A program made the position numbers and the translations under genes. The notes under the pieces were generated by a model. It ran no database searches. It was not told the origin of the DNA and saw nothing but the letters and a program-made list of their open reading frames with translations. A DNA stretch of 64,000 nt from an uncultured virus (IMG/VR IMGVR_UViG_3300010885_058378) (lineage: Duplodnaviria; Heunggongvirae; Uroviricota; Caudoviricetes): positions 62,001-126,000 of the IMG/VR virus record IMGVR_UViG_3300010885_058378; one strand, given 5' to 3'. Position 1 is the first letter of the stretch. The number at the start of each line of letters is the position of its first letter. This document shows positions 4,433 to 61,436 of the stretch, in pieces.

Positions 4433-4440
4433 ATCTTCTT

Positions 4441-42700: not shown

Positions 42701-43200
42701 ACAAATAATGAGTTTGATGATTCTATTAGTTTTAATTCAATAATAATATTGTTTGACTGGTCTAATGATGGAAGATTAATACTAATAGATTTTGAAGAGC
42801 AGTCTACAAGATACAAGGCGCTTATAGGATCTAAACATAAGTCTTTATCAATAACGATTGTGTTGTTTAATCCTTTATCAAAAGAACTTTGATTAGCAAA
42901 TACATAAAAGTCATTACCAGAAGATGGAAAATCTACTGTATTGTTATTATTAGATGATGAAATAGTCTCAATTCTTTTAACAACAATATTACCACTATTA
43001 TCAAATACTATTTCCCCAACACCAGTTTCAAATAAGCGACTATTTAAGTTTCTGGCTATGTAAGGAATTAAATATCCTACATGATTGGTATTAAGAATAT
43101 TATATGTTTTTATAGCAGATACTGGCTTAATAACGTCATTTTCTATAACGAAATTAAATCCAATATTATCAAATACTCTAATTGATTTATTAGGTGTCAT
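39742..43200 (-). CDS. Tail fibre-like protein with permuted FGE-sulfatase (C-type lectin fold) domain
   Basis: YGTYDQNGNAAEW, VGFRIAS, IGKYEVTNTQY, KPVVFVSY, LPNLNEWHKAAYY; GRVGIN...P fibre motif; first gene after the TMP. Confidence 0.8.
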   Translation of the reverse strand: MTPNKSIRVFDNIGFNFVIENDVIKPVSAIKTYNILNTNHVGYLIPYIARNLNSRLFETGVGEIVFDNSGNIVVKRIETISSSNNNNTVDFPSSGNDFYVFANQSSFDKGLNNTIVIDKDLCLDPISALYLVDCSSKSISINLPSLDQSNNIIIELKLIESSNSLFVNDKDGSLVCTLDSFNNYARLASTGKDWVVLNNKPPERMGVQSLNNDSDTFSIMSADINNAEMYWDSGSQRVFIGANSASSADTIIPTSGTYPFIVNNNSNGSDFIVYGSGSLNKNLFFSYDGRVGINIPSGSRPSTVFHIVNTVCQEGLRLENRTSCYPANITLYHKPSTDIASGSVVSQINLSAKNSTGNQTNYAQIESRAVNTTVYGEKGSLDITVVSGVTGIKTIQTTVDSTYVGYSGNRLQINNNGNLSLTNGSSQITVSPQSSITFSSSSVYATGTSYLTSISAQNIDASNITISNLGSSGLLMVSGGKIINSPLSIDSAGSLRIPVPANKLLSTTANGAITGIYTLDDYFLTERDIVWTKYSPRTATACLRQITFTDSIPSDEFAPGDQIVISYNGSNLYRKIISLELNGNAIVGLLVDESIVQNTTSNINIYSITKGGYLTMTKSVDDGIISNSSSNTLSIRPLVDTTFNAGQKDINFSVYGLGDDPALFIKANTGRILIPSGIYSGFATGRSDMFSTIINITGVGLSNQYSSANYAYDNSRNIFSGLLSSVGTNGLPSYYGTYDQNGNAAEWIEKQDAIESRDSIEFIAGGAYSTANDSIIGSNVLKSIESLIRASGYNYVGFRIASLQGITDQTYISSTNGLNMSFVGVNNPKNIEDLNPIYIKNPAGSPTVYSQQVINNLGVVNNIYRIGKYEVTNTQYCAFLNAVAKINDRELYDIRMSSNAQGGITRISNAGYEYSTKSNMGDKPVVFVSYLSAIKFINWLHNGASITLSESDIDYNLSVGAYTIYSIGSNSYNVVKSSYRKYWLPNLNEWHKAAYYRPVNSNDFTGTSTVSIKRSEPEVIATGIDITGSAAKLYANLSVSGWLYVDHIVVGDGTIRSAKSFTGLTDPVVVDTPTSQGTTTVSPSINLLTQYNNPYASVFGSVASCISAGCSFNAKPLRLDEDTISLCSDNTLSYNEIPWWCDTNNNGPGWFN

Positions 43201-43202
43201 GA

Positions 43203-46200
43203 TTAAGCTTTACCCATTGGTTTGTTGTTAGCGGATGAATTAAAGGCGCCTTCAGTAACTTTTCTATCATAGCTTGCAAAAGTATTTTGACTAGCATGGC
43301 GACCAGATAATTCTCCTGCTTGTGCTGCACTACTTACTATTCTATCTCCTTCTTTTCCGAATCCTAGAAAATCAACGACGTTCTTAACTTCGCCATGTAT
43401 ATTTAAAGTATTTGGCAAATTATCAGCAGATTGTGCAAACCCAGCTGTTGAATTACCAAAAGATTGGGTTGCATTAGCAAATGTTTGGCCGAAATTATTT
43501 AATGTTTCAGTACTACTTTGCATCATTTGACTATATGATTCCATTCCTGATTGGAGTGCGGTGCTTAGTTGGCCAACTGCTTCGTTCATAGCCTGTCCTA
43601 CTGCAGTGCTAATACTAGATGATATATCATTAGATACACCACTACTACCACCACTGCCTCCAGTAACTGGTCCAGCATTGGCATAATATTTGGGTGCAAC
43701 TATTCCACCATTGGCCAAATAGTTAACAATTCCACCTCTATTGAAATGGCCACTATTTATAGCATTAAGAAGAGGCATATGTTGCTGACTAGATTCTCTG
43801 TTAACAACAAACTCTCCAGGAGTTAGCATGGCTGGTACAGTATCTGTTCCCTGAGATAATGATGGAACTAATGCTCCATTATTAGCATATACTAAACCTC
43901 CAGAATTGTAAGTAGCAGCATCATATCTTGCCGGATCACTACTTTGTTGTTGTGCTTTTTTATATTCTGGTGACTGAGTATAGTGTAATGGAATACGTCC
44001 TTGCTCCGCTAAATCATTTGCTCTCTGTTTGAATCTTTGTGATTGTTCTCTATTAGCAATATCTATTGATCCTGCTTCAGTTCCAACCTTTAGACTTTCA
44101 GAACCAAAACCGATGCTTCCTCCAACAACAGCACCAGCAGCAGGACCAACCACTGGAACAACACTTCCAGCAGATGCTCCAATTGCGGCTCCCCTAGCAG
44201 CCGATTCCATTTGTGCTAATCTTTCATCTGTATTGTTTGATATTTCTTGATTAGCTAATTTACCTATTATTGAACCTCCAGAAGATGCTGAGCCAGATAT
44301 TGCTCCGAATACAGCCCTTGTTGGAGCGCTAATTCCTTGTTGTATAGCTTTTTCATCTTGTAGTCCTGCCATTGCTCCTCCTGCTATTGCTAACACTGGA
44401 GCCATTTTACCGGCTATTTGACCAGAGACTCTTCCTGCTGAAGACAAAGATGATGAGATCATTGGTGCTGCATTTGCTGCTGTATCTAATGACGCTTTAG
44501 AAATATCTCCAATGGCCTGAGTTTTATCTAGTGATGATTTTTCATTAGATAGTAATGTTTGAGTACCAGTTACAATATCGGCCATGCCTCTACCAACTCC
44601 TGCAACCCCTTTCATAGGAGCATTAGTAGCAAAAGTTTGAGCCAATCCTAATGCTGATGATGCTGTATCTAGAGTAACATTGCCTTCATATGCTGCTTTG
44701 CCAATATCACTTACATTTTTAGCTGTCGTAGTAGCCGTTTTAACGATAGCATTTACAGAGCCTCCATCGGCAAAATAACTTACTAGTCCTCCCTTGCTAT
44801 ATCCATGGAATTTCATTAATTGTTTTAGAATACTTTCTGCTCTCTTATTCCCCTTTACTTTGCTCATGTGCTGCATCAAGGTGCTTAATAGCTCATATGG
44901 AGCTTTTTTGATTTGGCTTGCAGAATATCCTTTACCTCCTGTTATAGCAGCTAATCCCTTTGGATCATCAACAAATGACTCGATTTGTTTCATTAATCCT
45001 GAAGATTTTAGCTTTTTGCCTCCAAAAGGATCAATCTTCATTCCGGCAGTTTTAGTTTGGAAAGAATGAGCCAATTCATGCTGAACTACTGATGTTTTGG
45101 CATTAGGATCCCTAAATACCATTTTGTTACCTGAAGTAACCATAGCCTCAGGATTTTTTACTGGACCTATATTCTTAGCAACTTTCTTTTGAGCCTCAGC
45201 TAGTGCCGTAGGATCAACAGATACTGATTGTGGAGTAGACTTATCGATAAATTCTGATAAGAACTTATCCCTTCTTGCTGGAGTAACATAATCAGCCAGA
45301 TCATTAGCTAGATTCTCTTGAACTTGTCTTATATTTACTGGATCAGTAACATTTATAACTTCTGGTAGTGGTCGTTTGGTCGGTAGTACTGCTACATCTG
45401 GTTTTGTTCTGGCCATAAATTCTTCAGCGGTAACTCTGGGCTTACTAGCTCTTTTAGCGGCCTTTGCTTCTTCAGCAAGTCTAGTATATTCTGCTGCTGT
45501 TATTTTGGGTTTGACTGGAGACCCTGATGTTGGCATAGTCAAATCAATATTTGATAATTTTTCATCCAATGCTCTGCTTCTTACAGCTTTGGCTTTTGCT
45601 GCTAGTCTACCATAATTACCATCATATTCTAATGGATTAATATCGTCTATGCTTCTTATCTTTGTAGGGGCAGACTCTGCGAATGTTACAGGCTTTGCTG
45701 GTGCCATATCCTTAAAAGGAGAAGTAACATTTGATCTATTAAGATTTGGTCTTGAATAATTTGGAGTTATACCTCTAACTCCTATAACATCACCCATTTG
45801 AGTAGCAACGTCTTGAACACCCTCAACAAAATTATTAACTACTCTTCCAGCTCCGCGAGCACCTGGAATTCTACCTCCCAATCTTCCTGCTCCTCTAGCA
45901 ACCCCCGTAATAGCTCTGTCTACTGTTCCAGCAGCCCTACCAACACTAGCAGCACCAGGTATTCTACTAGCAGCCCTACCAACACCAGAAACACCAGGTA
46001 TTCTACTAGCGACTCTTCCAGCAGCCCCTGCCATTCTACCGGCAGCATTAAATACTGCTCCTTCTGCATTGATTACTGCTCCTACGCCTTGAGAGGCTGC
46101 ATATCCAGCAGTTTGGAAGCCTGCTGTGGTAAAACCTAAATAACTATCCATTCCACCAGCCAACTCTACATTTCTAGCATCATTTCTTTGTAGAGCAGTT

Positions 46201-49200
46201 TCTGTTCCATTTTGTATTGGCCCCATACCAGCAACAGCTTGTCCAGCTTCAACAAAACTAGTTGCTCCAGCACCCATAGCTCTTAGTCCAACATCGGCAG
46301 CCGCAGAAGTTGCTGCAGAATAAGCCCCCTGTTGGTTATTTAGTCTGTTGCTGTTTGCAGTAAATGTTCTTGCTCTTATAATGGCAACATCTTGAGCAGC
46401 CGCTATCTCTTGAGGAGATGGCATTGGTCTGCCATTAGCTCTAGCCTCATCATACATATTTTCGGCTGTTCTGTTTCTTAAATTATTTTCATCTCCAATT
46501 TTAACAGCTGTATCATCTCCAGACATAGCATACCCAATACCTCCAACAATAGGAGATACAACTGTTGCAACTGCTCCGGCAGTTATATTTGCCGCCCCAT
46601 AAAGGGCGTCTCCAATACCCTGAGTTACTCCTCCAACATATCCTACTGCTGCCGTAGCAGGATTGCTACTATTTATATATAATGATGCTTGTCTATCTTC
46701 TTCAGCTTTTTGTTGTTGTGCTCTAACCTTTTCTGATGCAGTAACCTGTTGAGCCCCCTCAAATTGCGCTATTGCTTCACTATTAGCTTGATCCTGTAAT
46801 AATTGTTCGGTTGTTGGAACAACATAATTTTCAAGTTTTTCCATATACGGTTTTGGCATATATTTTCTTTGTTCAGTCCTGTACTGTTCTCTTTGATCTT
46901 CTTTAACTTTTCCTTCACTAAGCAATTGATTAAATTTATTGTCTATTTTGCCTGTTTGTTCATCTATTTTAGATCGATTTCTCTCATTAATTACTTGCTG
47001 TCTTCTTTGTTTCTTATAAGCTTCTCTATTTCCTTCATCATCTCTCCATGCTCCTGATTCTAATAGCTGATTAAATTCAACATCAAATGTTTGTTCTTGA
47101 GCTGCTATTTGTGCTCTTTTTTCTATTCCTATTTTTGTACTAGTAATAGCACTGTCTGCTTCTCTCTTTTTCTTGGTATCACTTGAAGTTGTGGCCGTTT
47201 GAATTGAAGAAGATAATCCTGGACTAGCAGTTGTTCTATAAACATTTTGTGTTTCTGCTTCTGCTCGTAATTTTGGATCATTACTATATTCCAATGGATC
47301 TGTAGCACCAGCATGTTGATAAGCTATTTGACTATTAGACAGCTGATTTGGATACTTTATCATTGCCTCAGTAGCTAGTGTATTCGATGGTGATCCAAGA
47401 GGAAAACCGAAAGAATCTCTGCGTGAACTTTCTCTATCTCTAGTTGTTTTTTGAGACTCAAACCTTGGATTAGGATCAATTCCATATGCACGATAGCTTC
47501 CAGCAACATAATCTCCAGGCAATGATACTCTAGGACTTGGAACCATTGGACCAATATTAACACCTAATCTTTCATCCTTATTCTTAATTTCTGGTGTTCT
47601 CAGATTAACAGGAGCATTAGTCTGAGATGCTAATCCTTGTCGAACGCCCGAAGAGACCGCAGGATCAGTTATATCAGGTCTTGCAGTAGTATACTGCTGT
47701 CTAATTCCCGATTCGATTGCGGCATTTTGTTGGGCAGCCTGTTGCTCATTGCTTGGTCTTGAGTAGGCTTCATTTATTCTGGAGGCCGTTGCTGAATCAA
47801 GACCGCTAGGATTTACTGCGTTGGGTCGCTGAAGGGCAGGCGATTCAGAAGTTTCAGATTCGGGATTGATAAGAGGATTAAGTCTATTGTATCTGTCTCT
47901 CTTTACTCTTTTTGATGCTGCAAGATTGTCTTCAACATCTCTGGATTGAATATTATCAAGTTTTTGAGATAATGTTCTTTTATAGTTTATAGTATCTAAT
48001 CGATTTTGTTGGTCAGGAGTTCTTTTTGATGGCGGAATATTATTTAAAGCCATTTTCCTGGTTATTTCAGATTCACTTAATCCATCAATTACGGCTTCTG
48101 AATAGCCCTGTTTTGTACGCAAAGCAGCATATTCTGTTTCTTCTTCTGAACTTCTTCCTTTGCTTCCTTTAAGCCATAATGATCGTCTTCGTGACTCTTC
48201 AGATTTAATTCTTTTTCTCTCATTGATAGTTTCTTGTGTTGGTCCAACATTTATTGCCGCTCCTCTGCCCCAAGGTATTTTTGTCATAATCGGTAGAGGA
48301 ACTGCTACTGGAACTGGTTGTTCCATAGGGCTTTGAGCCATTTGATTATTTGATGCTTCAGTTTCAGCAGCACTGGCTTTTTCAAATCTTTCTTTAGATC
48401 TTTTCTTTTCTTCATTATAAAAATTAACTCCAACAATACCAGAGTTAGGATCTTCCTTTATGCTGTCATATCCTGAATTATTAGCACTTCTGAGTTGTGC
48501 ATCAGCCTTTCTATTATTATAATTATCCCATCTATTTTGAAATTCTGGTTCATATTTTTTGGCTTCTGATTGTCTTTCATCCTCTGTCATACCCATCCAT
48601 CTACCATCACCTACCTGAGATTGTGCCCAACTAGATGATGTTCTAGAAACTACCTCATCAGGTCTTCTTCCAGTTGCCTCTGACATCATCCATGATTCTT
48701 TTTGAGCATCTATTCTTTCTTCTTTTCTTTTTTGTACTTCGCCACCATCTGCTAAATAAACCACTCCGCCCTTACTATAATTTCCACTATTAATAGCCTT
48801 CAATAGTGGTAAGTGTTCTGAGGTTGATCTTGCATTAATCACAAACTCGCCCGGAGTTAACATAGCAGGAACAGTATCAGTTCCTTGTGGTTGGAAATTT
48901 ACTAATTGACCTTCACTAGCATAAATTAATCCTCCGCGAGCCTTCGGAGGAGCAACTGGGGCGGCAACTCCGATATTTAATGGAACTTTAGCTCCGCCAG
49001 GAGCATTAATTCTACCCTCATTCATATCATTATTAGCCATGCTTGCTTCAACAGTTGTTCTAAGATCATCTATACTAACCTTAAGGTTGGCATTTGCTGA
49101 TACTAGAGCCTGCTGAGATTCTAATAAAGCCAACTCTCCTTGTGCCTTAGTAGCGTCAGCCTGCAATCCAACAGACTGTAAATACTTACCAGCAGCTTCT

Positions 49201-52200: not shown

Positions 52201-55200
52201 CCAAGAACTTTACCCTTTTTTGATTCTTTTAATCCTGCTTCTAAAAATTGTCGTTTTACTACTGCTGTTTTAGCTTGATCTCTAACATTCTTTAATGCTT
52301 TTTCTGCTGCTATTATAGTGTCTATTGATGCTCCAGTAATCTTGAGTCTTTCAACATCCTTAGTCATTGCCTTTTCAATATCTTTATAAGATATGTCAGC
52401 TCCTGCCCCAACTTGCTCAAGAACTTTCTTAAAGCTTATCATACTATAACCAGCTTCTTCAAACCCTTTTGTTAATAGTTTAATATTATTAACTAGTTCT
52501 GATGAAGCTTCTATACTTTTACTATCAATAGTTTCTGGTCTGGTTTTTAATTTTTGAACTGCTGGTTCAGCAAAACCTTTTAATGCTTTCATTATTTCTT
52601 CGATACTAAAAACACTACCTCCAGTAGCAAATCTTTGAATTACTCCTCCACCAACTACTCCTCCCTTATTATAACCCTGTAATTTATCCGCTTTATTTAA
52701 TGTCTCTAACTTGCCATATCCTATTTTTTCTGCTGCTTTCTTATTAACAACAAATTCACCAGGAGTTAATAATGCAGGAACAGTGTCCTTTGATGATATT
52801 CCTGCTTGTCCTCCTTGAGCAAAGGTCTCGATATTGGTTGGCTTCAAGGGAGATGATCCAACATATTTTAATGCTAATCCTAGTGGTTTTTCAAAAAGTT
52901 TGGATTCAAATGAATTTATTAATTCGGGATCTCCAGATTGTATTCTGGACATAAGTTGACCCAATAAAGCCCCTTCTCTTACATCTCCTTCACTTCCGGC
53001 ATAAATAGATTTTCTTGATCCTCCAGGCAAGGTAAACTCTGTTCCATCTTCGGATTTTAATGTTTGAGATCCTTCTTGAACACGTACTCCAACCGACATC
53101 ATCCCAGCATCTGGATTTTTATCGAACTTACCTTTTAATCCTGTTTGATTTTCAGTAGGAGCATATTTATCTTTAAGAGTATCGTAATTATCATGCATCC
53201 ATTGTACCACTAGTCCTTTTTGTAATTCATAATCTAAATCATAAGTTTTTGGATCTAAAGTTTCATCAAAACTTAATACCATTGGCTTTCCTGATCTATC
53301 TCCTTGAGCAACAGTGAAGTTGCTTCCTCCATTAACTCTCATCTTAGCTTGTTGTTCTGCTTTATTCTTTTCTGTATATAAGTAGAATCCTTCTCCTTGA
53401 CCATATCCTTTAGCAATATTAGAAAGAGCGCCCTTTTCTTTAAAGCTTTTTAGAACGCTATCATCAACTCCAGTATTGCTTCCGTGATATAGTTTAACTT
53501 TTCCTCCAGTAGCATATCCTCTATTTTTTCTCCACATTTTTTCATCATTAGTTTTGGTCTCAAACTCTTTTGGCTTGCGACCTTGTTTTTCCATAGCCTC
53601 TTGTATTCTTTTTTGTTTATTAGCCTGGGCAAGTTCATATCTTTCTTGTTCTGGTGATGTTTTTTTAGATGGTATTAGTCCAAATCTTTTGTTTATCTCC
53701 CAGTCTGGAATAGCATAGTCTTTATATCTATTATCTAATCGTTCTTCTAATTTTGCTGTGAGTTCTTCTTGGCTCATGCCCAAAGTCTTTGCTCGTGCGG
53801 CAATATCGGGTGGAGAATATGATCCTCTTACCCAGCCACCGTCAGAAAGCATTTGTATGTCTTCTTTGACGGGTTCTGGAATTCCATATTGTTGTCTAAA
53901 ATGTTTTTGGAATTCTTCAACAGCCTTGCCTCTACTATTACTATCTATTGTTCTTTTAACTTCTGTTGGAATATCAGGATCGATACCAAATATTTTTGCT
54001 GCTTTAGGTCCGATTCCCATTGGGAAGTCAATCGGACGAGTTCTTAAAGCATCATCTAATATTGTAGCGTCTGCTGATCCAAAAATTTGTTCTAGTAAAG
54101 CTCCTTCAATATTACCTTGACCTAATGTTTCTCTTTGTTTTTTACTTAATTTCTTTGGTTCTATGCCAAGAAGTTTTGAAGCTCCTCCTACAATTTCTTC
54201 TGTTTGACCACTAAGATAATCAATTACATTTTGATATTGATTTGGTAATCCTCTCTGAACTATTGAAGCATCTATTGATCTTTCTTGTCCAGACGAATCA
54301 ACTCCAAGATTCCAAGTTTCTGGCCCTAGTAATCCAGTATATCCCAATGGATTTAAGCCTACTAATCCTAATTGTTTGGATGATAATACAGCATTAGTTG
54401 TTTCTGCTAAAGTTGTAGCCTTTTGAGTTCCTTGTGATTGTTTAAATTTATCTATTAAGTAATCTCTTGTTGCAATATAGTAGGCCAGTTTATCTGCTTT
54501 TGTTTCTGGTCTAAATGCAGAATTCCAGTATTTTAATTTTCCTCCTTCAGCGGTATCTCTTACTGTTTTTCCTGAGAATGGACCAAAACTTGCGTCATTT
54601 GGTAATCTGTCTGTTCCAAATCTTTTTAATATCTCTGTTCCTTGTGCTGGTAATATCCCAGAAGACTTCTTGACCTGAGTGGCCTTTTCTACATTTTTTA
54701 GTATAGCCTCTTCTAGTCCAGAAGGCATTGCTGTTGGAACTCCGCCAAATTCACCGGACATCTGTTCTGATAGTTGTGCTGCTATGGCTTCTTTTGTTAT
54801 GTCTGATGGTTGTGTCGATACGGCGGATTTTCTTGATGGGTCTAGTCCATAAATTTCTGGATATTTTGCAGATAGGGCGCTTATTATATTAAATGCTCTA
54901 TAGCCAAATGCTCCTTTAGATACTCGGTCTCTTTTGTCCCTTATCTGCTTAACTTGATCAGCTATTTCTGGATAATTTTTCTTTAAATCAGCACTAACAT
55001 TACCATAAGGACCACCAGGAGCATTTGATAATATTTGTGAAACCTCATCATTGGATCGTATTTTTTCTTGATCAACAAATTTTTGTATTTCTTCTATTAG
55101 CATAGGAACCATAGTGCTACGATTACGCAATTGTGATCTATTGCCCATTAATATTGATGCTATATCAGGATTCATTAAATTAGCCAGCGATTTATCATCA

Positions 55201-58200
55201 CCATGAAATAATGCGTCTCTAACTGCAGTAGCACTAATGTCTTCTATTCTAGGAATATCTTTAACATCTATTCCTGCTCTTTGGTATTTACCTAACACTT
55301 TATCGTCTTTACCAGAGGTTATTGCCATAGCTCCTTTTAATCTAGCAAATTTTCTTCTATCTCCATCGCCAATAACTTCCATAAATTTTGGTAAACTACC
55401 GGCAGGCTGACCTTGGGTGCTAATCATAGCATTTCCAAAATTCATTTTGCTGAATAAGGTCCTTATATCTGCTGGAAAAATACCATATCGCGCAGCATGA
55501 TCTATGCCTTCTTTACCAACAATCATTGGAAGATCAGGAGCAACACTAACAAGAATATCTTCTAAAGAAGAGCTTGGGTTCTTTGCTAACATATTTTCTA
55601 ATAAAGTATCTAACGCTCCTCTATGACCTCTTGTTGGTGGGGCAAAACCGCCCATATAAAATCCACCAGCCTGAACTATTTCTGGTAATTCATTCTCTTT
55701 TTTACGCCGTAAGCCAAAACCATCTGATTTTCTTCCTAATACTGTTGCCTTTTTTCCAAGCTCATCTCGTAATATTGTTTCTTCCAAACCAAAATCAGTA
55801 TCAGCTCCTCTTGTGGTTCCTGGTTTACGACCATATAGCCCTTGTCCAGTAGCGTCTCTTTGTTCTCTATTTGCTCGTAATTTTTCTTGTTCTGATTGAG
55901 TATTAGAACTTAATATATATGCTCTATCAACATCTCTTAAATAAGCATCAAGTTTGGATTCACTAGCAGTTGATGTTATAGCAATAACTTCATTAACTTT
56001 ATCAATATCTTCAGGAGTTAATATTTGGGAGCGAATTGTTTTTCTTAAAGAAGCATCATCATTGGCGCTAAATCCTGTAGCCAAACTACTTTTTCCACTA
56101 CCAGCAGCACCAGCGATTGCTGTTAGTCTTGACAAAGAACCAGTTTTTCTTGCTTTAGCAGATAGTTCTCCTAGTTTTGTTGTATAGTCACTAACATCGG
56201 TTATTCCTAGTTTTTCCATTGCTTTATCAACAATACTAGCATTTGCTGGATCTCTAAGAACATCAGTATCAATAATTCCAATTTTTCTTTCTACTTTTCC
56301 ACCAGCAGCATAAGTTTGTCTCTGAATACCAGCACTACCCAATAGATCAGTTAGTGTAGAATCTAAAGCTCCTTGAAGATTACTATCAAGTCTAGGATAG
56401 TTCTGAACTAGTGTTGTTAAAAATTCTTCTTTCCCACTATCTTCTATTCTATCAATATAAGATTGAGAAATACTATTATCTAATAATGCCTGATTAACTT
56501 CTGGATTTAATGGTTTAAAATCTTTAGCCTTTTTAATACCAAGAGATTTTGCCCAAAGAGAGGATGCGGCGGTGGCTGCTTCGGGAGTTTTAGCAGGCTT
56601 GTCTCCCCTGCTAATAGATCGATTTTGTTGTATAATTTGATCTAATGTTCCAACTTTGTATGAACGTCCATATACAACATCCGAACTGTTATAGCTAGAC
56701 TCTAAAGAATCAAATGCATCCGCTAAATCATTATTGTCTCCACCAAATAAAGAAACAACTCTTGATTTATATTTATCAAAACTCTCTGATGATCGTGTTC
56801 GTAATCCTTGAAATAATTGGTGGGTCATTTCGTGATAAAAAGTATCATTTTTTCTACCAGAAAGTCTTCCGGTGCTCATGGTGATCGCGCCACGGCCAGT
56901 AGCTTTAGCTGTGGTTTGCATCTGATCCATGGCAGTTAATTCTGCTTGGTTTTTTAATTTTTTAGTATTAGATATCTTCATTTGAAGATCATTAATCTCA
57001 TCCCAAGTTTGTTTAGCTAATGCTTCATCATATGAAAAAGATCCGTCATCAAAAGTTTTTACTTGTGTTTTTATTATTTTCTTCAATTCTTTTTGTTTTT
57101 CTGCTACTAATTTTTCATATCCATAAAGATCCTGGTCATTGGCCTCTGTATATCCAGAACTAGATAGGTCATAGCCAGATGTTCTTTTGGTGCCGGTGCC
57201 AGTTCTATCGAATTGGCCAAGACCTCTTAATCCTAAATCAGTAAAATCAATATGATTTGGTAGAGCTAATGATAAATCTTCTCTAGGCAGTCCTATGAAT
57301 TTAGCAAAGTCGCTCATTCTTCTATAAATAGCGCTATTAGCTAATTTACTCTTGAAAGAATCTGCAAACTGCTTTCTATCGAATGGCATTGAGTCAAAAG
57401 CTTCGGTTGCTTTTGCTTGATCCACTTTGAATCTAAAGTCTTCTGGATATTCCAAGAAGGATCCTCCACTAAAAGCTTTATCAACTTGTTCTTTATTTAG
57501 CTTGGCGTCTATTTCTTTGAAATAGGCATTACTAATTCTTTTGGGAAATGGAAAAGTTCCACTTCCAAATGATCGGGTTTCTTTTGCTTTTCCTCCGACC
57601 ATGAACCTGGCCAATCCTTTGGTTTCTTTCATCTTCTTTACAAAACCATTGTCATCCAGTGTAGGTATTTTTCTTGTTCGTCGTTGTATTTTGTTATTAA
57701 TAATTCTATCTGGATCACCTTCTGGAAGATAATTAAACATATAATCATCTCTAATGACTCTATCCCAAGATGATGTTTTCACATTCCCAAATCCTTCATT
57801 ATTTTGCATTATTTTTAATCTGTTAGCTAATTTATCAGATTGTATAATATCTTGTCCTGGTCCAGTTCCGTGCTCCTTGGCTACTGCTGCTTTAATTAGT
57901 GTATCATTTAATGATTGTAATTTAAGAAGGGGTCTTCCATAAACATCAACCTGATTTGTATCTTTAAATGCTTGCGATACATTTTCTGCTCCTAAATCTG
58001 TAATAAAGTCAATAGTTATTTGCTTAGCAGCTCTTGCCTTCTCTCTATTGCTAGCAGAGGCTGGTCCACCAGAAGCCCCATAAACTTCTCTTTCTTGTTT
58101 AGATAATCTCATTTCAAATGCATCAACACCATCTAGCCTTGAAGATGTTTTGAATCTACCTTGCTCTTTAGGGTATAATAGAGTTTTATTATCAGGTTTT

Positions 58201-60131
58201 TTATATTTTTTATTAAATAATTCTGGAGTTGGATCAACCTCAACCGCAATACTGTCTCCATCACTAGCTTTTAATTTACCCGCATTGGCTTTATTGCTTT
58301 TTGCAAAAGGTAGCGGATCTATATCATCATATAATTTACCTCCTTGAGTAACCATGCCAGCATTAGCAAATCTTTGTCTTTTTTTTGCTGATCCGGCCCT
58401 TATACTTCCACCGCCCCCATACTTATTCATATTATGAAGATTATCTGATCCTATAGTCTCAACAGCCTTTTTTCGTATCACAAATTCTCCTGGCTCTAAC
58501 ATTGCAGGAACAGTATCTCCACTACCAGTTCCTGGAACAACTCCACCTCTTGCAAATTTTCTAATTACTCCACCATTAGCTTTACCATCTGGTCCTCTTT
58601 TAACTCCAGTACTAAAACCACTAGCAAATTGAGTTAAAGCTTTGGCACCCTTAAATGCTGTTATAACAGCAAGAGCGGGTAATATTCCTTTAACAGCATC
58701 TGTCACTTTAATTAGTCCACTAGCTAAACTTAAAGCTCCTCTTATTAATGACTGAAAACCTTTTGATTGTCCTATTTCTCTGAATAGAGCAAAAAACTCT
58801 TGTCTTACTTTGCTAATCTGATTTGCTAAAGAAAGTTGTGCAGTTGCGGCGTCTTTCGCTAACGATCCTTGGCCAGCTTGAGCGGTCTTTAATGCTTCTT
58901 GAGCAACTGTGAACTGCTGAATAAGCGGAATAACTTTACCTATTTGTCGGAATCCACCAAGTTCTTCAACTATCTTAGAGAACTGAGCAGTTCTTGGATC
59001 AATTCCACTCAACCCCTTACTTAATAATTCAACAGCTTTATATGCTCCTACGAATTTACCTTCGGTATCAGTTAGATTAACTCCAAACTCTTTGAGAGAA
59101 TCAATTGTGCTTCCTCTCTGAATACGAGTAAAAATAGTTCTTAAACCAGTAGCAATAGTTTCAGCACTTTCACGAGTTGTAGCACGAACACTTGTAAACA
59201 CTGCTATAAATTCATTTAAAGCATCCTTACCTTCACTAACTCCTTTACTTGCAGTTGCAAATACGCTACCCGTTCTTTGAACAGCAGTAATAATGTCAGA
59301 AGATTCAACGGCGAATTTTGCAGCAACAGTATTTACAGCACCTAGTGCTCCTTCTAAATCATCAGCACTAATACCAAACTGTCTCATTAATGCGATACTT
59401 CCTTCTACTGTCTCATTCATATTATCAAATGATGGAGCTAAACTACTTAAAGCTAAAGCTCTTAATGCTTTTTCTGTTTCTCTCGCACTCAAACCAGCCT
59501 GTGCTAATGTAGAAGCAACAGAGGTTAAATCTTTAGAACTAACACCAAATGTTGTTGATAGATTTGTAATTTGTTCTTGTAGTTTGGCAAGACCGGTTGA
59601 CGATTCACCAGTAACTTGTTGTAGTTTAACTAACTCTTTATCATAATCAATAAATGCTTGAACACCCTGACTAATACTATTTGTTAATCCGTATATAACA
59701 CTAGTAACAGTACTAAATGCTACGAATCTTCTAATGGCAAGACCAGCCTGTTTACCGAACTCTTGCATCTCTGCTGATGCTGATCCAAGATCTTTTGCTG
59801 ATGAGGCTGATGCTTTGTTAAGTTTATTAACAGCATTAGCTGCCGCATTGATTTGTTGTGGAACATTATTTATTTTGACACTATTTATACTATTACCAAA
59901 AGCTTTGATAGCTGCCGAGGCAGCAGTAGCAGATGTTGTTGTTGAACCAAATGCTGCATTTAAGCCTTTTAGGGACGAGGACAAAGCCGCAACATTTTTA
60001 GTAACAGCAGGATCAAGCTTAAAAGTAATATTTGCATTAATGTTACCAAGATCTTTTTTAATTTGTGCAGCAATTTGCTTTACATTTGTTGGTCCTTGTA
60101 AATTCAGTTGTGCAGTTAAGTTGAATGCCAT
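43203..60131 (-). CDS. Giant tape measure protein (5642 aa) carrying multiple enzyme-like domains
   Basis: N-terminal TMP domain (FIDYDKELVKLQQVTG, LAQAGLS, IATGLRTIFTRI); follows the tube and chaperone genes. It has four DTVPA(M/L)L(T/E)PGEFV blocks and internal nuclease, peptidase, kinase, nucleotidyltransferase and ART motifs. Confidence 0.9.
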   Translation of the reverse strand: MAFNLTAQLNLQGPTNVKQIAAQIKKDLGNINANITFKLDPAVTKNVAALSSSLKGLNAAFGSTTTSATAASAAIKAFGNSINSVKINNVPQQINAAANAVNKLNKASASSAKDLGSASAEMQEFGKQAGLAIRRFVAFSTVTSVIYGLTNSISQGVQAFIDYDKELVKLQQVTGESSTGLAKLQEQITNLSTTFGVSSKDLTSVASTLAQAGLSARETEKALRALALSSLAPSFDNMNETVEGSIALMRQFGISADDLEGALGAVNTVAAKFAVESSDIITAVQRTGSVFATASKGVSEGKDALNEFIAVFTSVRATTRESAETIATGLRTIFTRIQRGSTIDSLKEFGVNLTDTEGKFVGAYKAVELLSKGLSGIDPRTAQFSKIVEELGGFRQIGKVIPLIQQFTVAQEALKTAQAGQGSLAKDAATAQLSLANQISKVRQEFFALFREIGQSKGFQSLIRGALSLASGLIKVTDAVKGILPALAVITAFKGAKALTQFASGFSTGVKRGPDGKANGGVIRKFARGGVVPGTGSGDTVPAMLEPGEFVIRKKAVETIGSDNLHNMNKYGGGGSIRAGSAKKRQRFANAGMVTQGGKLYDDIDPLPFAKSNKANAGKLKASDGDSIAVEVDPTPELFNKKYKKPDNKTLLYPKEQGRFKTSSRLDGVDAFEMRLSKQEREVYGASGGPASASNREKARAAKQITIDFITDLGAENVSQAFKDTNQVDVYGRPLLKLQSLNDTLIKAAVAKEHGTGPGQDIIQSDKLANRLKIMQNNEGFGNVKTSSWDRVIRDDYMFNYLPEGDPDRIINNKIQRRTRKIPTLDDNGFVKKMKETKGLARFMVGGKAKETRSFGSGTFPFPKRISNAYFKEIDAKLNKEQVDKAFSGGSFLEYPEDFRFKVDQAKATEAFDSMPFDRKQFADSFKSKLANSAIYRRMSDFAKFIGLPREDLSLALPNHIDFTDLGLRGLGQFDRTGTGTKRTSGYDLSSSGYTEANDQDLYGYEKLVAEKQKELKKIIKTQVKTFDDGSFSYDEALAKQTWDEINDLQMKISNTKKLKNQAELTAMDQMQTTAKATGRGAITMSTGRLSGRKNDTFYHEMTHQLFQGLRTRSSESFDKYKSRVVSLFGGDNNDLADAFDSLESSYNSSDVVYGRSYKVGTLDQIIQQNRSISRGDKPAKTPEAATAASSLWAKSLGIKKAKDFKPLNPEVNQALLDNSISQSYIDRIEDSGKEEFLTTLVQNYPRLDSNLQGALDSTLTDLLGSAGIQRQTYAAGGKVERKIGIIDTDVLRDPANASIVDKAMEKLGITDVSDYTTKLGELSAKARKTGSLSRLTAIAGAAGSGKSSLATGFSANDDASLRKTIRSQILTPEDIDKVNEVIAITSTASESKLDAYLRDVDRAYILSSNTQSEQEKLRANREQRDATGQGLYGRKPGTTRGADTDFGLEETILRDELGKKATVLGRKSDGFGLRRKKENELPEIVQAGGFYMGGFAPPTRGHRGALDTLLENMLAKNPSSSLEDILVSVAPDLPMIVGKEGIDHAARYGIFPADIRTLFSKMNFGNAMISTQGQPAGSLPKFMEVIGDGDRRKFARLKGAMAITSGKDDKVLGKYQRAGIDVKDIPRIEDISATAVRDALFHGDDKSLANLMNPDIASILMGNRSQLRNRSTMVPMLIEEIQKFVDQEKIRSNDEVSQILSNAPGGPYGNVSADLKKNYPEIADQVKQIRDKRDRVSKGAFGYRAFNIISALSAKYPEIYGLDPSRKSAVSTQPSDITKEAIAAQLSEQMSGEFGGVPTAMPSGLEEAILKNVEKATQVKKSSGILPAQGTEILKRFGTDRLPNDASFGPFSGKTVRDTAEGGKLKYWNSAFRPETKADKLAYYIATRDYLIDKFKQSQGTQKATTLAETTNAVLSSKQLGLVGLNPLGYTGLLGPETWNLGVDSSGQERSIDASIVQRGLPNQYQNVIDYLSGQTEEIVGGASKLLGIEPKKLSKKQRETLGQGNIEGALLEQIFGSADATILDDALRTRPIDFPMGIGPKAAKIFGIDPDIPTEVKRTIDSNSRGKAVEEFQKHFRQQYGIPEPVKEDIQMLSDGGWVRGSYSPPDIAARAKTLGMSQEELTAKLEERLDNRYKDYAIPDWEINKRFGLIPSKKTSPEQERYELAQANKQKRIQEAMEKQGRKPKEFETKTNDEKMWRKNRGYATGGKVKLYHGSNTGVDDSVLKSFKEKGALSNIAKGYGQGEGFYLYTEKNKAEQQAKMRVNGGSNFTVAQGDRSGKPMVLSFDETLDPKTYDLDYELQKGLVVQWMHDNYDTLKDKYAPTENQTGLKGKFDKNPDAGMMSVGVRVQEGSQTLKSEDGTEFTLPGGSRKSIYAGSEGDVREGALLGQLMSRIQSGDPELINSFESKLFEKPLGLALKYVGSSPLKPTNIETFAQGGQAGISSKDTVPALLTPGEFVVNKKAAEKIGYGKLETLNKADKLQGYNKGGVVGGGVIQRFATGGSVFSIEEIMKALKGFAEPAVQKLKTRPETIDSKSIEASSELVNNIKLLTKGFEEAGYSMISFKKVLEQVGAGADISYKDIEKAMTKDVERLKITGASIDTIIAAEKALKNVRDQAKTAVVKRQFLEAGLKESKKGKVLGSGGAQQAILTEADRIEKSIKAQREKQLTQSLSGGPGGYGPSFGNASQIKEEVKRRLDEQAKEIKEMSFSSATQKVTGIKKSELSDMGIGGSDIQSYISQSMTDRKTLAQMDKQLIAMRLEEYKNAGTVRGVSVKSASEALSLAKEEVGKRREMINEMAKEQGEKGVGAGGLTDWRNSPIKKAVQERYFSGTASQGIGTALGDVGMVAGLVGGQGKNIANLMYDTSTDEGKIAAAGKGAAIEQAGSTLATGLTTASQLMAINPLLGGLAALGTVVYATTDYFTDFTGAQKTAALEMEKNLRFEEVAASEKDLAKAFKDFEKDIGNIDLQKALDKALVRSSESSLKAVSAETKVAQNEKGKTRTWTEFLSGAEKPKMDTQDFNELDSKIAERNADSGDKAFALISQKINTGASVESIQADKELIGARRALVLADEDALKTVRARIMEEGGYEKVSKEKQDAILDEVANQKILTNVQVQSAIKTKQMSDALEAADKAGRKLAASFEKLSSIISESVNRIKFESDVRKSSAEESRSALRGESQDRGPKLRELNVLENPNAYSEKDFNQALQSATAGVDEKTRNQLIGGAQLQQQLPNAITKSIAEKLNTNANLNVDQAKTEAIKTTNEQIDKTNLSDEQKTSLKKQAETRINNLAEESKKKNDTPQAELDAFREGLGEADNILGAFGVKTLEAVKALSSFKQGALADFSEGLRDASKAAKDSQNYFKKSRDISTQGNRNLREVMTGVGETYGEKQARVMGDVAGLAGGQTSVGGIKNRIVDLQAQRTAVEEKRQGMSDPDELKKSAIQLRSLDDQLRDTREALDTLASSTELVEKAFDDLKNVRDLQKNRESFVNTLLTNTPEEADKLNKTFIRLQRNLSGGLNGASNQRDARKAFNQTLRETGSVREATKAGNTVLANQRKETLALSQDPGVKAAQELNIRNQYAQGKGKPGVSADQAVADYFKQQQLQLTKSMAIESGMMNNPLVQQSIAAMENPKADPAMQEAAGKYLQSVGLQADATKAQGELALLESQQALVSANANLKVSIDDLRTTVEASMANNDMNEGRINAPGGAKVPLNIGVAAPVAPPKARGGLIYASEGQLVNFQPQGTDTVPAMLTPGEFVINARSTSEHLPLLKAINSGNYSKGGVVYLADGGEVQKRKEERIDAQKESWMMSEATGRRPDEVVSRTSSSWAQSQVGDGRWMGMTEDERQSEAKKYEPEFQNRWDNYNNRKADAQLRSANNSGYDSIKEDPNSGIVGVNFYNEEKKRSKERFEKASAAETEASNNQMAQSPMEQPVPVAVPLPIMTKIPWGRGAAINVGPTQETINERKRIKSEESRRRSLWLKGSKGRSSEEETEYAALRTKQGYSEAVIDGLSESEITRKMALNNIPPSKRTPDQQNRLDTINYKRTLSQKLDNIQSRDVEDNLAASKRVKRDRYNRLNPLINPESETSESPALQRPNAVNPSGLDSATASRINEAYSRPSNEQQAAQQNAAIESGIRQQYTTARPDITDPAVSSGVRQGLASQTNAPVNLRTPEIKNKDERLGVNIGPMVPSPRVSLPGDYVAGSYRAYGIDPNPRFESQKTTRDRESSRRDSFGFPLGSPSNTLATEAMIKYPNQLSNSQIAYQHAGATDPLEYSNDPKLRAEAETQNVYRTTASPGLSSSIQTATTSSDTKKKREADSAITSTKIGIEKRAQIAAQEQTFDVEFNQLLESGAWRDDEGNREAYKKQRRQQVINERNRSKIDEQTGKIDNKFNQLLSEGKVKEDQREQYRTEQRKYMPKPYMEKLENYVVPTTEQLLQDQANSEAIAQFEGAQQVTASEKVRAQQQKAEEDRQASLYINSSNPATAAVGYVGGVTQGIGDALYGAANITAGAVATVVSPIVGGIGYAMSGDDTAVKIGDENNLRNRTAENMYDEARANGRPMPSPQEIAAAQDVAIIRARTFTANSNRLNNQQGAYSAATSAAADVGLRAMGAGATSFVEAGQAVAGMGPIQNGTETALQRNDARNVELAGGMDSYLGFTTAGFQTAGYAASQGVGAVINAEGAVFNAAGRMAGAAGRVASRIPGVSGVGRAASRIPGAASVGRAAGTVDRAITGVARGAGRLGGRIPGARGAGRVVNNFVEGVQDVATQMGDVIGVRGITPNYSRPNLNRSNVTSPFKDMAPAKPVTFAESAPTKIRSIDDINPLEYDGNYGRLAAKAKAVRSRALDEKLSNIDLTMPTSGSPVKPKITAAEYTRLAEEAKAAKRASKPRVTAEEFMARTKPDVAVLPTKRPLPEVINVTDPVNIRQVQENLANDLADYVTPARRDKFLSEFIDKSTPQSVSVDPTALAEAQKKVAKNIGPVKNPEAMVTSGNKMVFRDPNAKTSVVQHELAHSFQTKTAGMKIDPFGGKKLKSSGLMKQIESFVDDPKGLAAITGGKGYSASQIKKAPYELLSTLMQHMSKVKGNKRAESILKQLMKFHGYSKGGLVSYFADGGSVNAIVKTATTTAKNVSDIGKAAYEGNVTLDTASSALGLAQTFATNAPMKGVAGVGRGMADIVTGTQTLLSNEKSSLDKTQAIGDISKASLDTAANAAPMISSSLSSAGRVSGQIAGKMAPVLAIAGGAMAGLQDEKAIQQGISAPTRAVFGAISGSASSGGSIIGKLANQEISNNTDERLAQMESAARGAAIGASAGSVVPVVGPAAGAVVGGSIGFGSESLKVGTEAGSIDIANREQSQRFKQRANDLAEQGRIPLHYTQSPEYKKAQQQSSDPARYDAATYNSGGLVYANNGALVPSLSQGTDTVPAMLTPGEFVVNRESSQQHMPLLNAINSGHFNRGGIVNYLANGGIVAPKYYANAGPVTGGSGGSSGVSNDISSSISTAVGQAMNEAVGQLSTALQSGMESYSQMMQSSTETLNNFGQTFANATQSFGNSTAGFAQSADNLPNTLNIHGEVKNVVDFLGFGKEGDRIVSSAAQAGELSGRHASQNTFASYDRKVTEGAFNSSANNKPMGKA

Positions 60132-61425: not shown

Positions 61426-61436
61426 GGTGTTACTTT

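What the first reader, a model, noticed from the sequence alone, without database searches (positions are those of the whole stretch)
43670..58580. Recurrent (F/Y)AxGG motif and four DTVPAMLTPGEFV blocks bound the TMP cassettes
Seen: the long block GG...DTVPA(M/L)L(T/E)PGEFV(I/V)...L..(M/L/I)N...GG occurs four times (~58408-58580, 52615-52825, 48740-48940, 43670-43910). Short forms sit at domain boundaries: FANAG before the nuclease, FMVGG before peptidase 1, YAAGG before the kinase, LSDGG after the PD-(D/E)xK domain, YATGG directly before the ART LYHG, FAQGG after it, and YSKGG/FADGG after peptidase 2. Recalled from memory: one similar FATGG...GEFV...YATGG block lies near the processed C-terminus of lambda gpH. 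Inference: the motif is an amplified proteolytic-processing signal that releases cargo domains, and/or a recombination junction for swapping cassettes.
Basis: partly seen in the sequence, partly recalled or inferred. Interest (0 to 1): 0.87.

Follow-up and report, generated by a model that had tools for sequence, protein, structure and literature searches.

The report
Repeated joint module in giant tape measure
A 5,642-residue phage tail "ruler" protein is built from swappable enzyme-like segments separated by copies of one short conserved joint, the same element that phage lambda's ruler has once beside its cutting site; whether the joints are cut is still untested.

Summary
ORF 43203-60131 (-) encodes a 5,642-aa TP901-type tape measure protein (TMP). 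It has four ~75-aa blocks with the core DTVPA(M/L)L(T/E)PGEFV at aa 515-596, 2434-2509, 3729-3805 and 5406-5483.

- **What the block is:** an unnamed module with no Pfam hit. It matches lambda gpH 730-802 and two sites in mycobacteriophage Douge gp16. It hits 25,993 protein clusters, and the top 150 are 935-7,872 aa with 3-13 copies.
- **What the short form is:** the flank unit of the block, GG-x-V-Q-K-(F/Y)-A-x-GG-x-V, standing alone.
- **Junction role (shown):** in about 26 related giant TMPs, and in 150+ more distant ones, cassettes are gained, lost or permuted exactly at these units. Free-standing homologues of the ART-fold cassette lack them.
- **DNA:** the copies are old. Synonymous sites have diverged and exact DNA matches are at most 14 nt, so selection acts on the protein.
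- **Cleavage (not shown):** it rests on analogy with lambda gpH to gpH* and on a T5 look-alike. No universal protease was found.
- **Cargo names:** only the ART fold gained support.

This scan has reported the same feature before on other DNA (at least 12 genomes, by earlier AI notes).

The parts
43203..60131 (-). Giant tape measure protein gene, 5,642 aa
   Evidence: One open frame. PF10145 E 3.1e-24 and TIGR01760 E 5.3e-32 on the N-terminal part.
58617..60131 (-). N-terminal TP901-type TMP core (aa 1-505)
   Evidence: Conserved at 56-100% identity in 40 viral-contig loci. A profile of it finds no internal paralogue.
58344..58589 (-). Block 1 (aa 515-596), followed by FANAG/TQGG (aa 588-598)
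   Evidence: Block profile, 92 bits. PHROG TMP families hit. The first block lies at about aa 510-640 in all 28 sequences.
57606..58334 (-).
   Evidence: No family hit. Replaced by other sequence in G004. Identity unverified.
57591..57605 (-). Short joint FMVGG (aa 843-847)
   Evidence: A breakpoint cluster of 5 lies 4 aa away.
56313..57590 (-).
   Evidence: Absent from G001 and G002, exactly between the two joints. Present in 73 giant proteins. No Pfam family. Weak Atlas leads to LPD domains of polyvalent proteins.
56298..56312 (-). Short joint YAAGG (aa 1274-1278)
53850..56297 (-). Cassette aa 1279-2094 (P-loop and HIGH-nucleotidyltransferase-like motifs, then unknown)
   Evidence: Only sub-threshold Pfam hints. 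In 18 homologous copies a joint is present on the left in 18 and on the right in 17.
53835..53849 (-). Short joint LSDGG (aa 2095-2099)
53517..53834 (-). Mini cassette aa 2100-2205
   Evidence: Missing in G004, exactly between joints. Found at other positions in P0142, P0083 and P0144.
53502..53516 (-). Short joint YATGG (aa 2206-2210)
   Evidence: Lies in the low-confidence linker just before strand 1 of the folded model.
52824..53501 (-). ART-fold cassette aa 2211-2436
   Evidence: AlphaFold2 model, pLDDT 76.4, pTM 0.68. The best structural matches are almost all ADP-ribosyltransferase-fold chains, Z 4.4-7.7. H17, Y51 and E103 are invariant in 17 sequences.
52605..52832 (-). Block 2 (aa 2434-2509), includes FAQGG and FATGG
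   Evidence: Block profile, 81 bits.
48948..52604 (-). Long segment aa 2510-3728, the most conserved cassette and the likely ruler
   Evidence: No family hit. Homologous in 79 of 150 distant giant TMPs. Its length is about 1,300 aa in WIN, L004, L005-L008, L010 and L043.
48717..48947 (-). Block 3 (aa 3729-3805)
   Evidence: Block profile, 96 bits.
45492..48716 (-). Low-complexity segment aa 3806-4880
   Evidence: No significant family.
44802..45491 (-).
   Evidence: Motif only. Homologues in 4 of 150. A joint follows it in 4 of 4 copies.
44760..44801 (-). Double short joint YSKGG...FADGG (aa 5111-5124)
43917..44759 (-). Gly/Ala-rich hydrophobic segment aa 5125-5405
   Evidence: Hydropathy peak at aa 5324-5342. 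Lambda has a hydrophobic stretch before its block in the same way.
43683..43916 (-). Block 4 (aa 5406-5483)
   Evidence: Block profile, 92 bits. Lies 159 aa from the C-terminus, as in 22 of 27 related TMPs and 143 of 150 distant ones.
43206..43682 (-). C-terminal tail aa 5484-5642, presumed hub-binding end
   Evidence: Assigned by position, by analogy with lambda 818-849 and Douge 1658-1699. Not tested.

Best explanation
Shown here:
- The four blocks are copies of a widespread, unnamed TMP module of about 75 aa. It has a core, G(T/S)DTVPAMLTPGEFV(V/I)N(K/R)KA...L..(I/M/L)N, with one or two units of about 9 aa on each side, GG-x-(V/I)-x-(K/R)-(F/Y)-A-x-GG-x-V.
- The short (F/Y)AxGG forms are that flank unit alone.
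- In this lineage of 130-250 kb uncultured phages the TMP is a modular carrier. Its order is: conserved N-terminal core, block, variable enzyme-like cassettes each fenced by a unit, block, a ~1,200-aa ruler-like segment, block, further segments, last block, then a ~135-160 aa C-terminal tail.
- The unit and the block are the joints at which cassettes are inserted, lost and reordered.
- They are kept by selection on the protein, not by DNA homology.
- They belong to the TMP context, not to the cargo domains.

Inferred:
- The joints are extended, glycine-hinged connectors read by a conserved partner.
- Most likely they are sites of limited proteolysis, as where lambda gpH is cut to gpH* plus gpHC. 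The chain would then be separated into ruler pieces and free enzymes, during tail maturation or after ejection ahead of the DNA.
For: - **Blocks and consensus:**
- **Lambda:** gpH 732-802 matches at 27.4 bits and at E 7.7e-4. Lambda is cut in its glycine-rich region at about residue 690-710, the exact site is unknown, and residues ~690-817 are unresolved (passages of PMC12617516). Fragments 1-710, 1-721 and 1-738 weigh 77.7, 78.5 and 80.2 kDa, against the ~78 kDa reported for gpH*.
- **T5:** pb2 is cut after R1127 (passage of PMC10038345), and AEGG follows directly in the sequence.
- **Close relatives:** all 30 related records searched have 2-9 blocks inside one 2,329-7,577-aa frame.
- **Wide distribution:** 25,993 clusters at E<=1e-3 and 1,365 at E<=1e-30. 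The top 150 have 3-13 stretches.
- **Exact cassette indels and permutations:**
- **Breakpoint enrichment:** 109 of 569 against 24.4 expected. By motif class the fold values are 4.8 for [FY]xxGG, 2.8 for other hydrophobic-xxGG, 1.7 for other GG, and 0.5-1.5 for controls.
- **Joints at cassette flanks in about 176 giant TMPs (left and right):** pep1 16 and 16 of 18; the kinase-like cassette 18 and 17 of 18; ART 10 and 11 of 13 (near-duplicate rows were not removed).
- **Free-standing homologues:** 0 of 6 homologues of the ART-fold cassette (239-285 aa) have a joint at either border.
- **Fold models:** the joints are low-confidence linkers outside the folded ART model, residues 1-9 and 241-246. 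The block alone does not fold, pLDDT 59.
- **DNA:** old copies with diverged synonymous sites.
- **A cultured phage:** in cyanomyophage S-SCSM1 the block (aa 600-656) directly precedes a glucosaminidase domain (aa 697-816) in a protein whose record note reads 'lysozym (virion protein)'.
Against: - No cleavage was observed, and none can be observed with these tools.
- No protease is universal. The pep1 cassette occurs in 17 of 150 distant giant TMPs and pep2 in 4 of 150. Any HExxH occurs in 109 of 210.
- The genome's trypsin-like and subtilase genes recur in only 6 and 5 of 8 near-complete relatives.
- No JAB, C48, C39 or M23 family was found among the 112 ORFs scanned.
- The long block is conserved far beyond what a cleavage site needs.
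- The repeated GG-x-V pattern, with a conserved hydrophobic residue at +2, suggests strand-like structure.
- T5 is cut before AEGG, not after GG, and it gives no profile match.
- The paper on Thermus phage P23-45, whose 5,002-aa TMP has a fused RNA polymerase, never uses 'proteoly' and uses 'cleav' only for tag removal. That TMP also lacks the block.
- 5 of 27 related TMPs have no C-terminal block.
Confidence: 0.45

Rival explanations
1. The joints are never cut. Block and unit are a structural connector or docking element. In this reading they are short strands that pair between the three or six TMP chains, or that bind a repeated tail component such as the tube lumen or the assembly chaperone. 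They keep modules in register in the tube and act as hinges when the chain is ejected. The cargo then works while still fused.
For: - The block core is long and nearly invariant, and the repeated GG-x-V-x-x-(F/Y)-A-x unit has a period of about 9.
- The block does not fold alone, apart from two short helices. That fits folding on a partner.
- Copy number rises with length, r = 0.59 in 210 proteins.
- No universal protease was found.
- The P23-45 paper gives a TMP-fused enzyme and never mentions proteolysis of it.
- For Douge gp16, which has two blocks, the passages read report a trimeric TMP through the tube and no cleavage.
Against: - Lambda, the only characterised protein with the block, is cut next to it.
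- The core is identical in phages of cyanobacteria, actinobacteria and proteobacteria, and in both sipho- and myophage proteins. Their tube and chaperone proteins differ widely, which makes a phage-specific docking partner harder to see.
- The cargo cassettes look like soluble enzymes that would act away from a membrane-spanning ruler.
Confidence: 0.35
2. The motifs are mainly DNA-level recombination signals. Repeated coding sequence drives cassette exchange by homologous recombination, and the peptide itself has little function.
For: - Cassette exchange occurs exactly at the motifs.
- Some joints share short strings such as GGAGGAAAAG.
Against: - The longest exact DNA match between blocks is 8-14 nt.
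- Nucleotide identity of the cores is 53-69%.
- Third positions under conserved residues agree in 6-8 of 12-18 cases.
- The peptide is conserved across phages with very different base composition and hosts. That points to selection on the protein.
Confidence: 0.07
3. The block is itself an active or ligand-binding domain, for example a cell-wall-binding or lytic element or a self-cleaving module, and not a joint.
For: - D, E, G, P and N are invariant.
- T5's region after its cut is reported to be muralytic (passage).
- In S-SCSM1 the block lies in a wall-hydrolase protein.
- By eye the core resembles the LysM pattern.
Against: - 0 of 99 block copies hit LysM or any wall-binding Pfam family at E<=10.
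- hhalign against E. coli MltD's LysM pair gives probability 0.2%.
- The model has no autonomous fold.
- The residue after GG varies, so there is no fixed nucleophile for self-cleavage.
Confidence: 0.08

Closest known systems
Phage lambda tape measure gpH, C-terminal glycine-rich region, and its maturation to gpH* plus gpHC
   Same: It has one copy of the same module, FATGG...GEFV...YATGG at aa 732-802, with a profile match. The module follows a hydrophobic stretch and precedes the hub-binding C-terminus. Cleavage occurs in the same glycine-rich region.
   Different: Lambda has one copy and no cargo. The exact cut site and the protease are unknown, and the block region (~690-817) is unresolved in the structures. 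The window has four blocks plus isolated units fencing enzyme-like cassettes.
Thermus phage P23-45 gp96, a 5,002-aa TMP fused to a virion RNA polymerase (PMC10770324)
   Same: It is a giant TMP that carries an enzyme into the host (abstract).
   Different: It has no block (best domain score -4.3). It carries one N-terminal cargo, not a row of swappable cassettes. The paper does not discuss cleavage of the TMP (term search).
Polyvalent proteins of phages and conjugative elements (Iyer et al. 2017, PMC5512222)
   Same: Many unrelated enzymatic domains sit in one polypeptide delivered with the DNA. Processing into units by embedded zincin-like peptidases was proposed (passages). The Atlas gives weak leads from the pep1 cassette to LPD families.
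   Different: 'Tape measure' occurs 0 times in that paper, and neither a joint motif nor a linker is described. Here the carrier is the TMP and the joints are a defined conserved module.
Phage T5 pb2, cut after R1127 into pb2* and pb2C (PMC10038345)
   Same: The cut lies between a hydrophobic stretch and a C-terminal piece that stays in the tip. The residues after the cut are AEGG.
   Different: There is no profile match to the block. The cut lies before the AxGG, not after GG. This is a resemblance only.
Mycobacteriophage Douge gp16 TMP (PDB 8ZDO; PMC13033339)
   Same: It has two block copies, at aa 963-1036 and 1412-1464 (E 3.4e-9).
   Different: It is 1,699 aa. Only residues 1658-1699 are modelled, so the block has not been seen in this structure either.

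Membership tests
TP901-family phage tail tape measure protein (PF10145 / TIGR01760) | Match to the family core model above the curated cut-off | tested here: met
   PF10145 scores 86.4 bits against a cut-off of 33.2. TIGR01760 scores 111.2 bits against 28.8.
TP901-family phage tail tape measure protein (PF10145 / TIGR01760) | Gene sits in a tail module, upstream of distal tail and fibre genes | tested here: inconclusive
   The downstream ORFs have fn3 and minor-tail-protein hits. The upstream ORFs have no hits.
TP901-family phage tail tape measure protein (PF10145 / TIGR01760) | Protein length sets tail length | not testable with these tools
   The virus is uncultured.
Lambda gpH-type C-terminal joint module (unnamed; no Pfam) | Profile similarity to lambda gpH aa ~730-800 | tested here: met
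   27.4 bits and E 7.7e-4.
Lambda gpH-type C-terminal joint module (unnamed; no Pfam) | Lies about 70-260 aa from the TMP C-terminus | tested here: met
   Block 4 ends 159 aa from the end. The same holds in 143 of 150 distant TMPs. Blocks 1-3 are internal.
Lambda gpH-type C-terminal joint module (unnamed; no Pfam) | Proteolytic cut at or next to the module | not testable with these tools
   This needs protein chemistry. In lambda itself the site is unmapped.
Polyvalent proteins (Iyer et al. 2017) | Several unrelated catalytic domains in one virion-delivered polypeptide | tested here: inconclusive
   The ART-like fold is supported. The other cassettes rest on motifs or sub-threshold hits only.
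Polyvalent proteins (Iyer et al. 2017) | Zincin-like MPTase domain | tested here: inconclusive
   HExxH at aa 1100 and 5018. No Pfam match. Not folded.
ADP-ribosyltransferase superfamily (cassette aa 2211-2436) | ART fold | tested here: inconclusive
   In VIA-align the top rows are nearly all ART-fold chains, but Z is only 4.4-7.7 over 79-137 aligned residues. Foldseek gives no match at E<=0.001. Pfam DUF3990 gives E 0.026.
ADP-ribosyltransferase superfamily (cassette aa 2211-2436) | Catalytic H-Y-E or R-S-E residues | tested here: inconclusive
   H17, Y51 and E103 are invariant in 17 sequences. Their placement in an NAD pocket was not checked.
LysM peptidoglycan-binding domain (for the block) | Sequence or profile similarity to LysM | tested here: not met
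   0 of 99 copies hit PF01476 at E<=10. hhalign probability is 0.2%.
Di-glycine processing systems (clan CE LxGG proteases, C39 double-glycine peptidases, JAB, M23) | A protease of such a family encoded by the phage | tested here: not met
   None among the 98 + 14 ORFs scanned against Pfam. The genome is about 95% complete, and the families named are from my recollection.

The most novel reading that the evidence does not exclude
The joints form a di-glycine cleavage code. The giant TMP would be a true polyprotein, cut at every block and unit by one conserved activity of phage or host, or by the module itself. One tail would then deliver a train of free enzymes ahead of the DNA: ART, zincins, and kinase- or nucleotidyltransferase-like domains. 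The same code would explain the unmapped lambda gpH to gpH* cut.
Probability: 0.3. Interest if true: 0.9.

Novelty: new variant of a known kind. Interest (0 to 1): 0.72.

Why it matters
- **Scale of the family.** The module is in about 26,000 protein clusters, yet it has no Pfam family and has never been seen in a structure. Five literature searches found no description of it. That is no proof that none exists.
- **A testable candidate for lambda.** The lambda paper read here (passages) says the site and the catalyst of the gpH cleavage are unknown. This module gives a concrete candidate site.
- **A natural insertion point.** It shows where tails accept foreign domains, which bears on how phages evolve and deliver pre-made effectors. 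It also suggests where cargo could be placed in laboratory phages.

Tried and rejected
- **Cargo families:** Pfam, PHROG and NCBIfam on the cargo segments gave nothing significant. phmmer of aa 600-2440 and 3800-5642 against PDB sequences gave nothing.
- **Concatenated TMP units:** rejected. A profile of the N-terminal core finds only the N-terminus in 27 of 27 TMPs. The 20%-identity BLAST matches were run without composition correction.
- **LysM-like reading of the block:** rejected.
- **Embedded zincins as the general processing enzyme:** rejected, because they are present in a minority of TMPs.
- **Trypsin and subtilase gene pair as a universal protease:** not universal.
- **T5 pb2 as a homologue:** no profile hit.
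- **P23-45 TMP:** no block.
- **Megablast of the gene against 50,697 phage records:** no match.
- **Block monomer fold:** low confidence, so not used for fold search.
- **Complex prediction (three copies of the block):** never ran. The queue was full and the tool was then declared unavailable. Self-association is therefore untested.
- **Frameshifted chaperone pair upstream:** not supported. The second ORF has its own GGAG plus ATG at 61133.
- **Xu et al. 2014 on gpG-gpH binding:** not held in the library.
- **Tal2009 glycine-site cleavage:** my recollection only. The passages read do not state it.
- **Self-BLAST of the protein:** gave only the identity hit.
Full report
**The gene.** The window is bases 62001-126000 of a 131,481-bp virus record judged 95% complete. 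ORF 43203-60131 on the minus strand is one open frame of 5,642 aa. Its first ~500 residues are a TP901-type tape measure core: PF10145 at E 3.1e-24 and TIGR01760 at E 5.3e-32. Megablast against 50,697 phage records finds nothing.

DTVPA occurs four times, each followed by (M/L)L(T/E)PGEFV. An iterated profile delimits the blocks at aa 515-596, 2434-2509, 3729-3805 and 5406-5483. These are window 58344-58589, 52605-52832, 48717-48947 and 43683-43916.

**What the block is.**
- The four copies share 16 invariant positions.
- Over 136 copies in 28 related sequences the consensus has three parts. Upstream: GG(L/V)(I/V)..(Y/F)AxGG. Core: G(T)DTVPAMLTPGEFV(V/I)N(K/R)KA......L..(I/M/L)N. Downstream: (Y/F)xxGG(V/I)V.(Y)(L/F)AxGGxV.
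- The isolated short forms have the logo GG-x-(V/I)-Q-(K/R)-(F/Y)-A-x-G-G-x-(V/A). They are the block's flank unit standing alone.
- No Pfam family matches: none for the four copies at E<=1, and 0 of 99 copies hit a relevant family at E<=10.
- Seventeen PHROG families, most of them TMP families, match block 1. The match is usually near their C-terminal end, and three families are hit at different positions by blocks 1 and 2.
- tblastn places it in TMPs of Gordonia, Mycobacterium, Nodularia, Ralstonia, Burkholderia, Dinoroseobacter, Rhizobium and other phages (109 records; 44 records).
- It also lies in hub-region virion proteins of T4-like cyanomyophages, with an identical core.
- Against 1.84 billion representative proteins the profile finds 25,993 at E<=1e-3, 7,346 at E<=1e-10 and 1,365 at E<=1e-30. 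The best 150 are 935-7,872 aa with 3-13 matched stretches. A single copy scored at most about 118 bits, so I infer that the 1,365 carry more than one copy.

**Link to lambda.** gpH has FATGG (734), GEFV (755) and YATGG (779). It matches the profile at 27.4 bits and at E 7.7e-4. According to passages of PMC12617516:
- gpH loses a ~14-kDa C-terminal piece from its glycine-rich region;
- gpH* is about 78 kDa, roughly residues 1-710;
- the exact site and the catalyst are unknown;
- only residues 818-849 are resolved, bound to gpI, and ~690-817 are not.

Fragments 1-710, 1-721 and 1-738 weigh 77.7, 78.5 and 80.2 kDa. A cut at or just before the first unit of the module is therefore compatible with the data but is not shown.

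The only other solved-structure sequence with the block is Douge gp16, with two copies. There only residues 1658-1699 are modelled. The block has thus not been seen in either of these two structures.

**Link to T5.** pb2 is cut after R1127 (PMC10038345). The sequence there reads ...FVPR|AEGG.... T5 does not match the profile, so this is a look-alike only.

**The joints bound cassettes.** Forty viral-contig loci encode relatives of the N-terminal core at 56-100% identity. In all 30 records that could be searched, 2-9 blocks lie in one frame of 2,329-7,577 aa. I fetched the full genes.

- The first block always follows the core, at about aa 510-640. In 22 of 27 TMPs the last block ends 77-206 aa from the C-terminus; one of these, G005, is cut by its contig end. 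Five TMPs lack a terminal block.
- Against close relatives, the differences are whole cassettes bounded by joints:
  - The window reads ...FMVGG|KAKETR...(426 aa)...YAAGG|KVERK..., while G001 and G002 read ...FMVGG|KVERK....
  - The window reads ...LSDGG|(~100 aa)...YATGG|KVKLYHG, while G004 reads ...LADGG|AVKLYHG.
  - G006 and G022 have a different cassette after the same joint.
  - G014, G015 and G017 have the window's cassettes in another order.
- Over all pairs, 109 of 569 clustered alignment ends lie within 5 aa of [FYWLM]xxGG, against 24.4 expected.
- By motif class the fold values are 4.8 for [FY]xxGG, 2.8 for other hydrophobic-xxGG, 1.7 for other GG, 1.5 for PP, 1.3 for SS and 0.5 for [FY]xxAA. 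The pairs are phylogenetically related, so these are not independent events.
- In about 176 giant TMPs (near-duplicates not removed), joints lie at the projected borders of each cassette as follows:

| Cassette | Left border | Right border |
|---|---|---|
| pep1 | 16 of 18 | 16 of 18 |
| kinase-like | 18 of 18 | 17 of 18 |
| ART | 10 of 13 | 11 of 13 |
| mini | 3 of 4 | 4 of 4 |
| pep2 | 1 of 4 | 4 of 4 |
| aa 600-842 | 2 of 3 | 2 of 3 |

- The neighbours of a given cassette differ from one protein to another.
- In the 150 distant representatives the plan is the same. Each has 3-11 copies. 125 of 150 have the same N-terminal core. The first block starts at a median of aa 513. The last block ends a median of 135 aa from the C-terminus, and within 260 aa in 143 of 150.

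**The joint belongs to the TMP, not to the cargo.** The ART-fold cassette has free-standing homologues of 239-285 aa with their own starts and ends. None of the 6 has a joint before the first strand or after the last conserved motif. A seventh hit, P0211, does carry joints but fills a 1,263-nt contig, so it is a gene fragment. In the AlphaFold2 model of aa 2200-2445 (pLDDT 76.4, pTM 0.68), YATGG and FAQGG fall in the low-confidence ends, residues 1-9 and 241-246, outside the folded domain.

**Selection acts on the protein.** Between the four cores, nucleotide identity is 53-69%. Third positions under conserved residues agree in 6-8 of 12-18 cases. The longest exact DNA match between whole blocks is 8-14 nt. 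The copies are old, and long DNA homology cannot drive the exchange. Microhomology remains possible.

**The cargo.**
- Structural search of the aa 2200-2445 model returns almost only ADP-ribosyltransferase-fold chains (tRNA 2'-phosphotransferase, PARPs, diphtheria- and pertussis-type catalytic domains, DarT, Arr), at Z 4.4-7.7. Foldseek alone gives nothing significant. H17, Y51 and E103 are invariant in the alignment. I read this as support for an ART-like fold. Activity is untested.
- The other names rest on motifs. HEMTH lies at aa 1100 and HELAH at aa 5018. P-loop families reach E 0.009-0.25, and a HIGH-nucleotidyltransferase-associated family reaches E 0.035.
- The pep1 cassette occurs in 73 giant proteins. 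Most of them carry PF10145 as their only precomputed Pfam family, and none carries a family assignable to the cassette. The Atlas gives weak leads (0.85-0.90) from it to LPD domains of polyvalent proteins.
- The polyvalent-protein paper proposes processing by embedded zincins, but it never mentions tape measures or a joint.

**How it most likely works.** That the module is the joint of a modular TMP is shown. What the joint does is inferred.

For cutting:
- the lambda precedent, and the T5 look-alike;
- the hydrophobic-x-x-G-G shape, which from my recollection resembles the sites of clan CE, C39 and M23 peptidases;
- soluble enzymes need to leave a ruler.

Against cutting:
- no protease is universal;
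- the block is far longer than a cleavage site;
- the unit repeats with a conserved hydrophobic residue at +2;
- the P23-45 paper on a TMP-fused polymerase never mentions proteolysis, and that TMP lacks the block.

The block alone does not fold (pLDDT 59, two short helices), which fits either a linear recognition element or folding on a partner. The trimer prediction could not be run.

My estimates are: joint plus limited proteolysis 0.45; uncut connector or docking element 0.35; DNA-level signal 0.07; autonomous active or binding domain 0.08.

**Earlier notes of this scan.** Look-ups made after my own analysis show that the same feature was reported on at least 12 other genomes, with the same reading: junction module, lambda homology, cleavage untested. 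These are AI notes and not independent evidence. My calls reproduce their main claims on this window.

Noticed in passing
G000 13249-14902 (outside the window; L064): Adjacent trypsin-like (PF00089, E 7e-12) and subtilase (PF00082, E 2e-51) genes lie next to two giant ORFs of 1,406 and 1,654 aa and an HNH gene. Trypsin recurs in 6 of 8 and subtilase in 5 of 8 near-complete relatives, as a neighbouring pair in five of them. They are candidate maturation proteases but are not universal.
   Followed up: partly
related TMPs, e.g. G017 near aa 2408 and P0087, P0144, P0062: A second block subtype, GG(S/T)(V/I)PA(M/L)VS(N/S/T)GEA(Y/F)(V/I)PP, often follows cassettes. My profile scores it low (30-60 bits), often as two overlapping hits.
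   Followed up: no
L070 (Synechococcus phage S-SCSM1) 3171-6023; L069 (S-SM2) 4002-6302: T4-like cyanomyophage hub-region proteins carry one block with the identical DTVPAMLTPGEFV core. In S-SCSM1 it sits at aa 600-656, directly before a glucosaminidase domain at aa 697-816, in a protein whose record note reads 'lysozym (virion protein)'.
   Followed up: partly
window 12907-27059 (-): Two further giant ORFs of 2,576 and 2,140 aa lie downstream of the tail genes, with no Pfam or PHROG match.
   Followed up: no
window 39742-43200 and 29101-32781 (-): Two large tail-region proteins carry FGE-sulfatase-like domains (E 2.6e-11 and 8.4e-12), and fn3 domains lie nearby. They are probably receptor-binding or fibre proteins.
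   Followed up: no
G000 52625-54679 and 60358-61773 with window 550-3940: RecA is interrupted by a LAGLIDADG/Hint element, and DNA polymerase III alpha is split with intein-like hits. The genome also has a Volactin actin-like gene (G000 2744-3745) and a ClpP-like protease (G000 36931-37593).
   Followed up: no
window 43206-43694 (-): The C-terminal 163 aa give a weak PHROG hit (E 0.0073) to a family described as 'released from the phage upon host infection'.
   Followed up: no
window 61123-61160: The two small ORFs upstream of the TMP overlap. The second has its own GGAG and ATG (61133), so no programmed frameshift need be invoked.
   Followed up: partly
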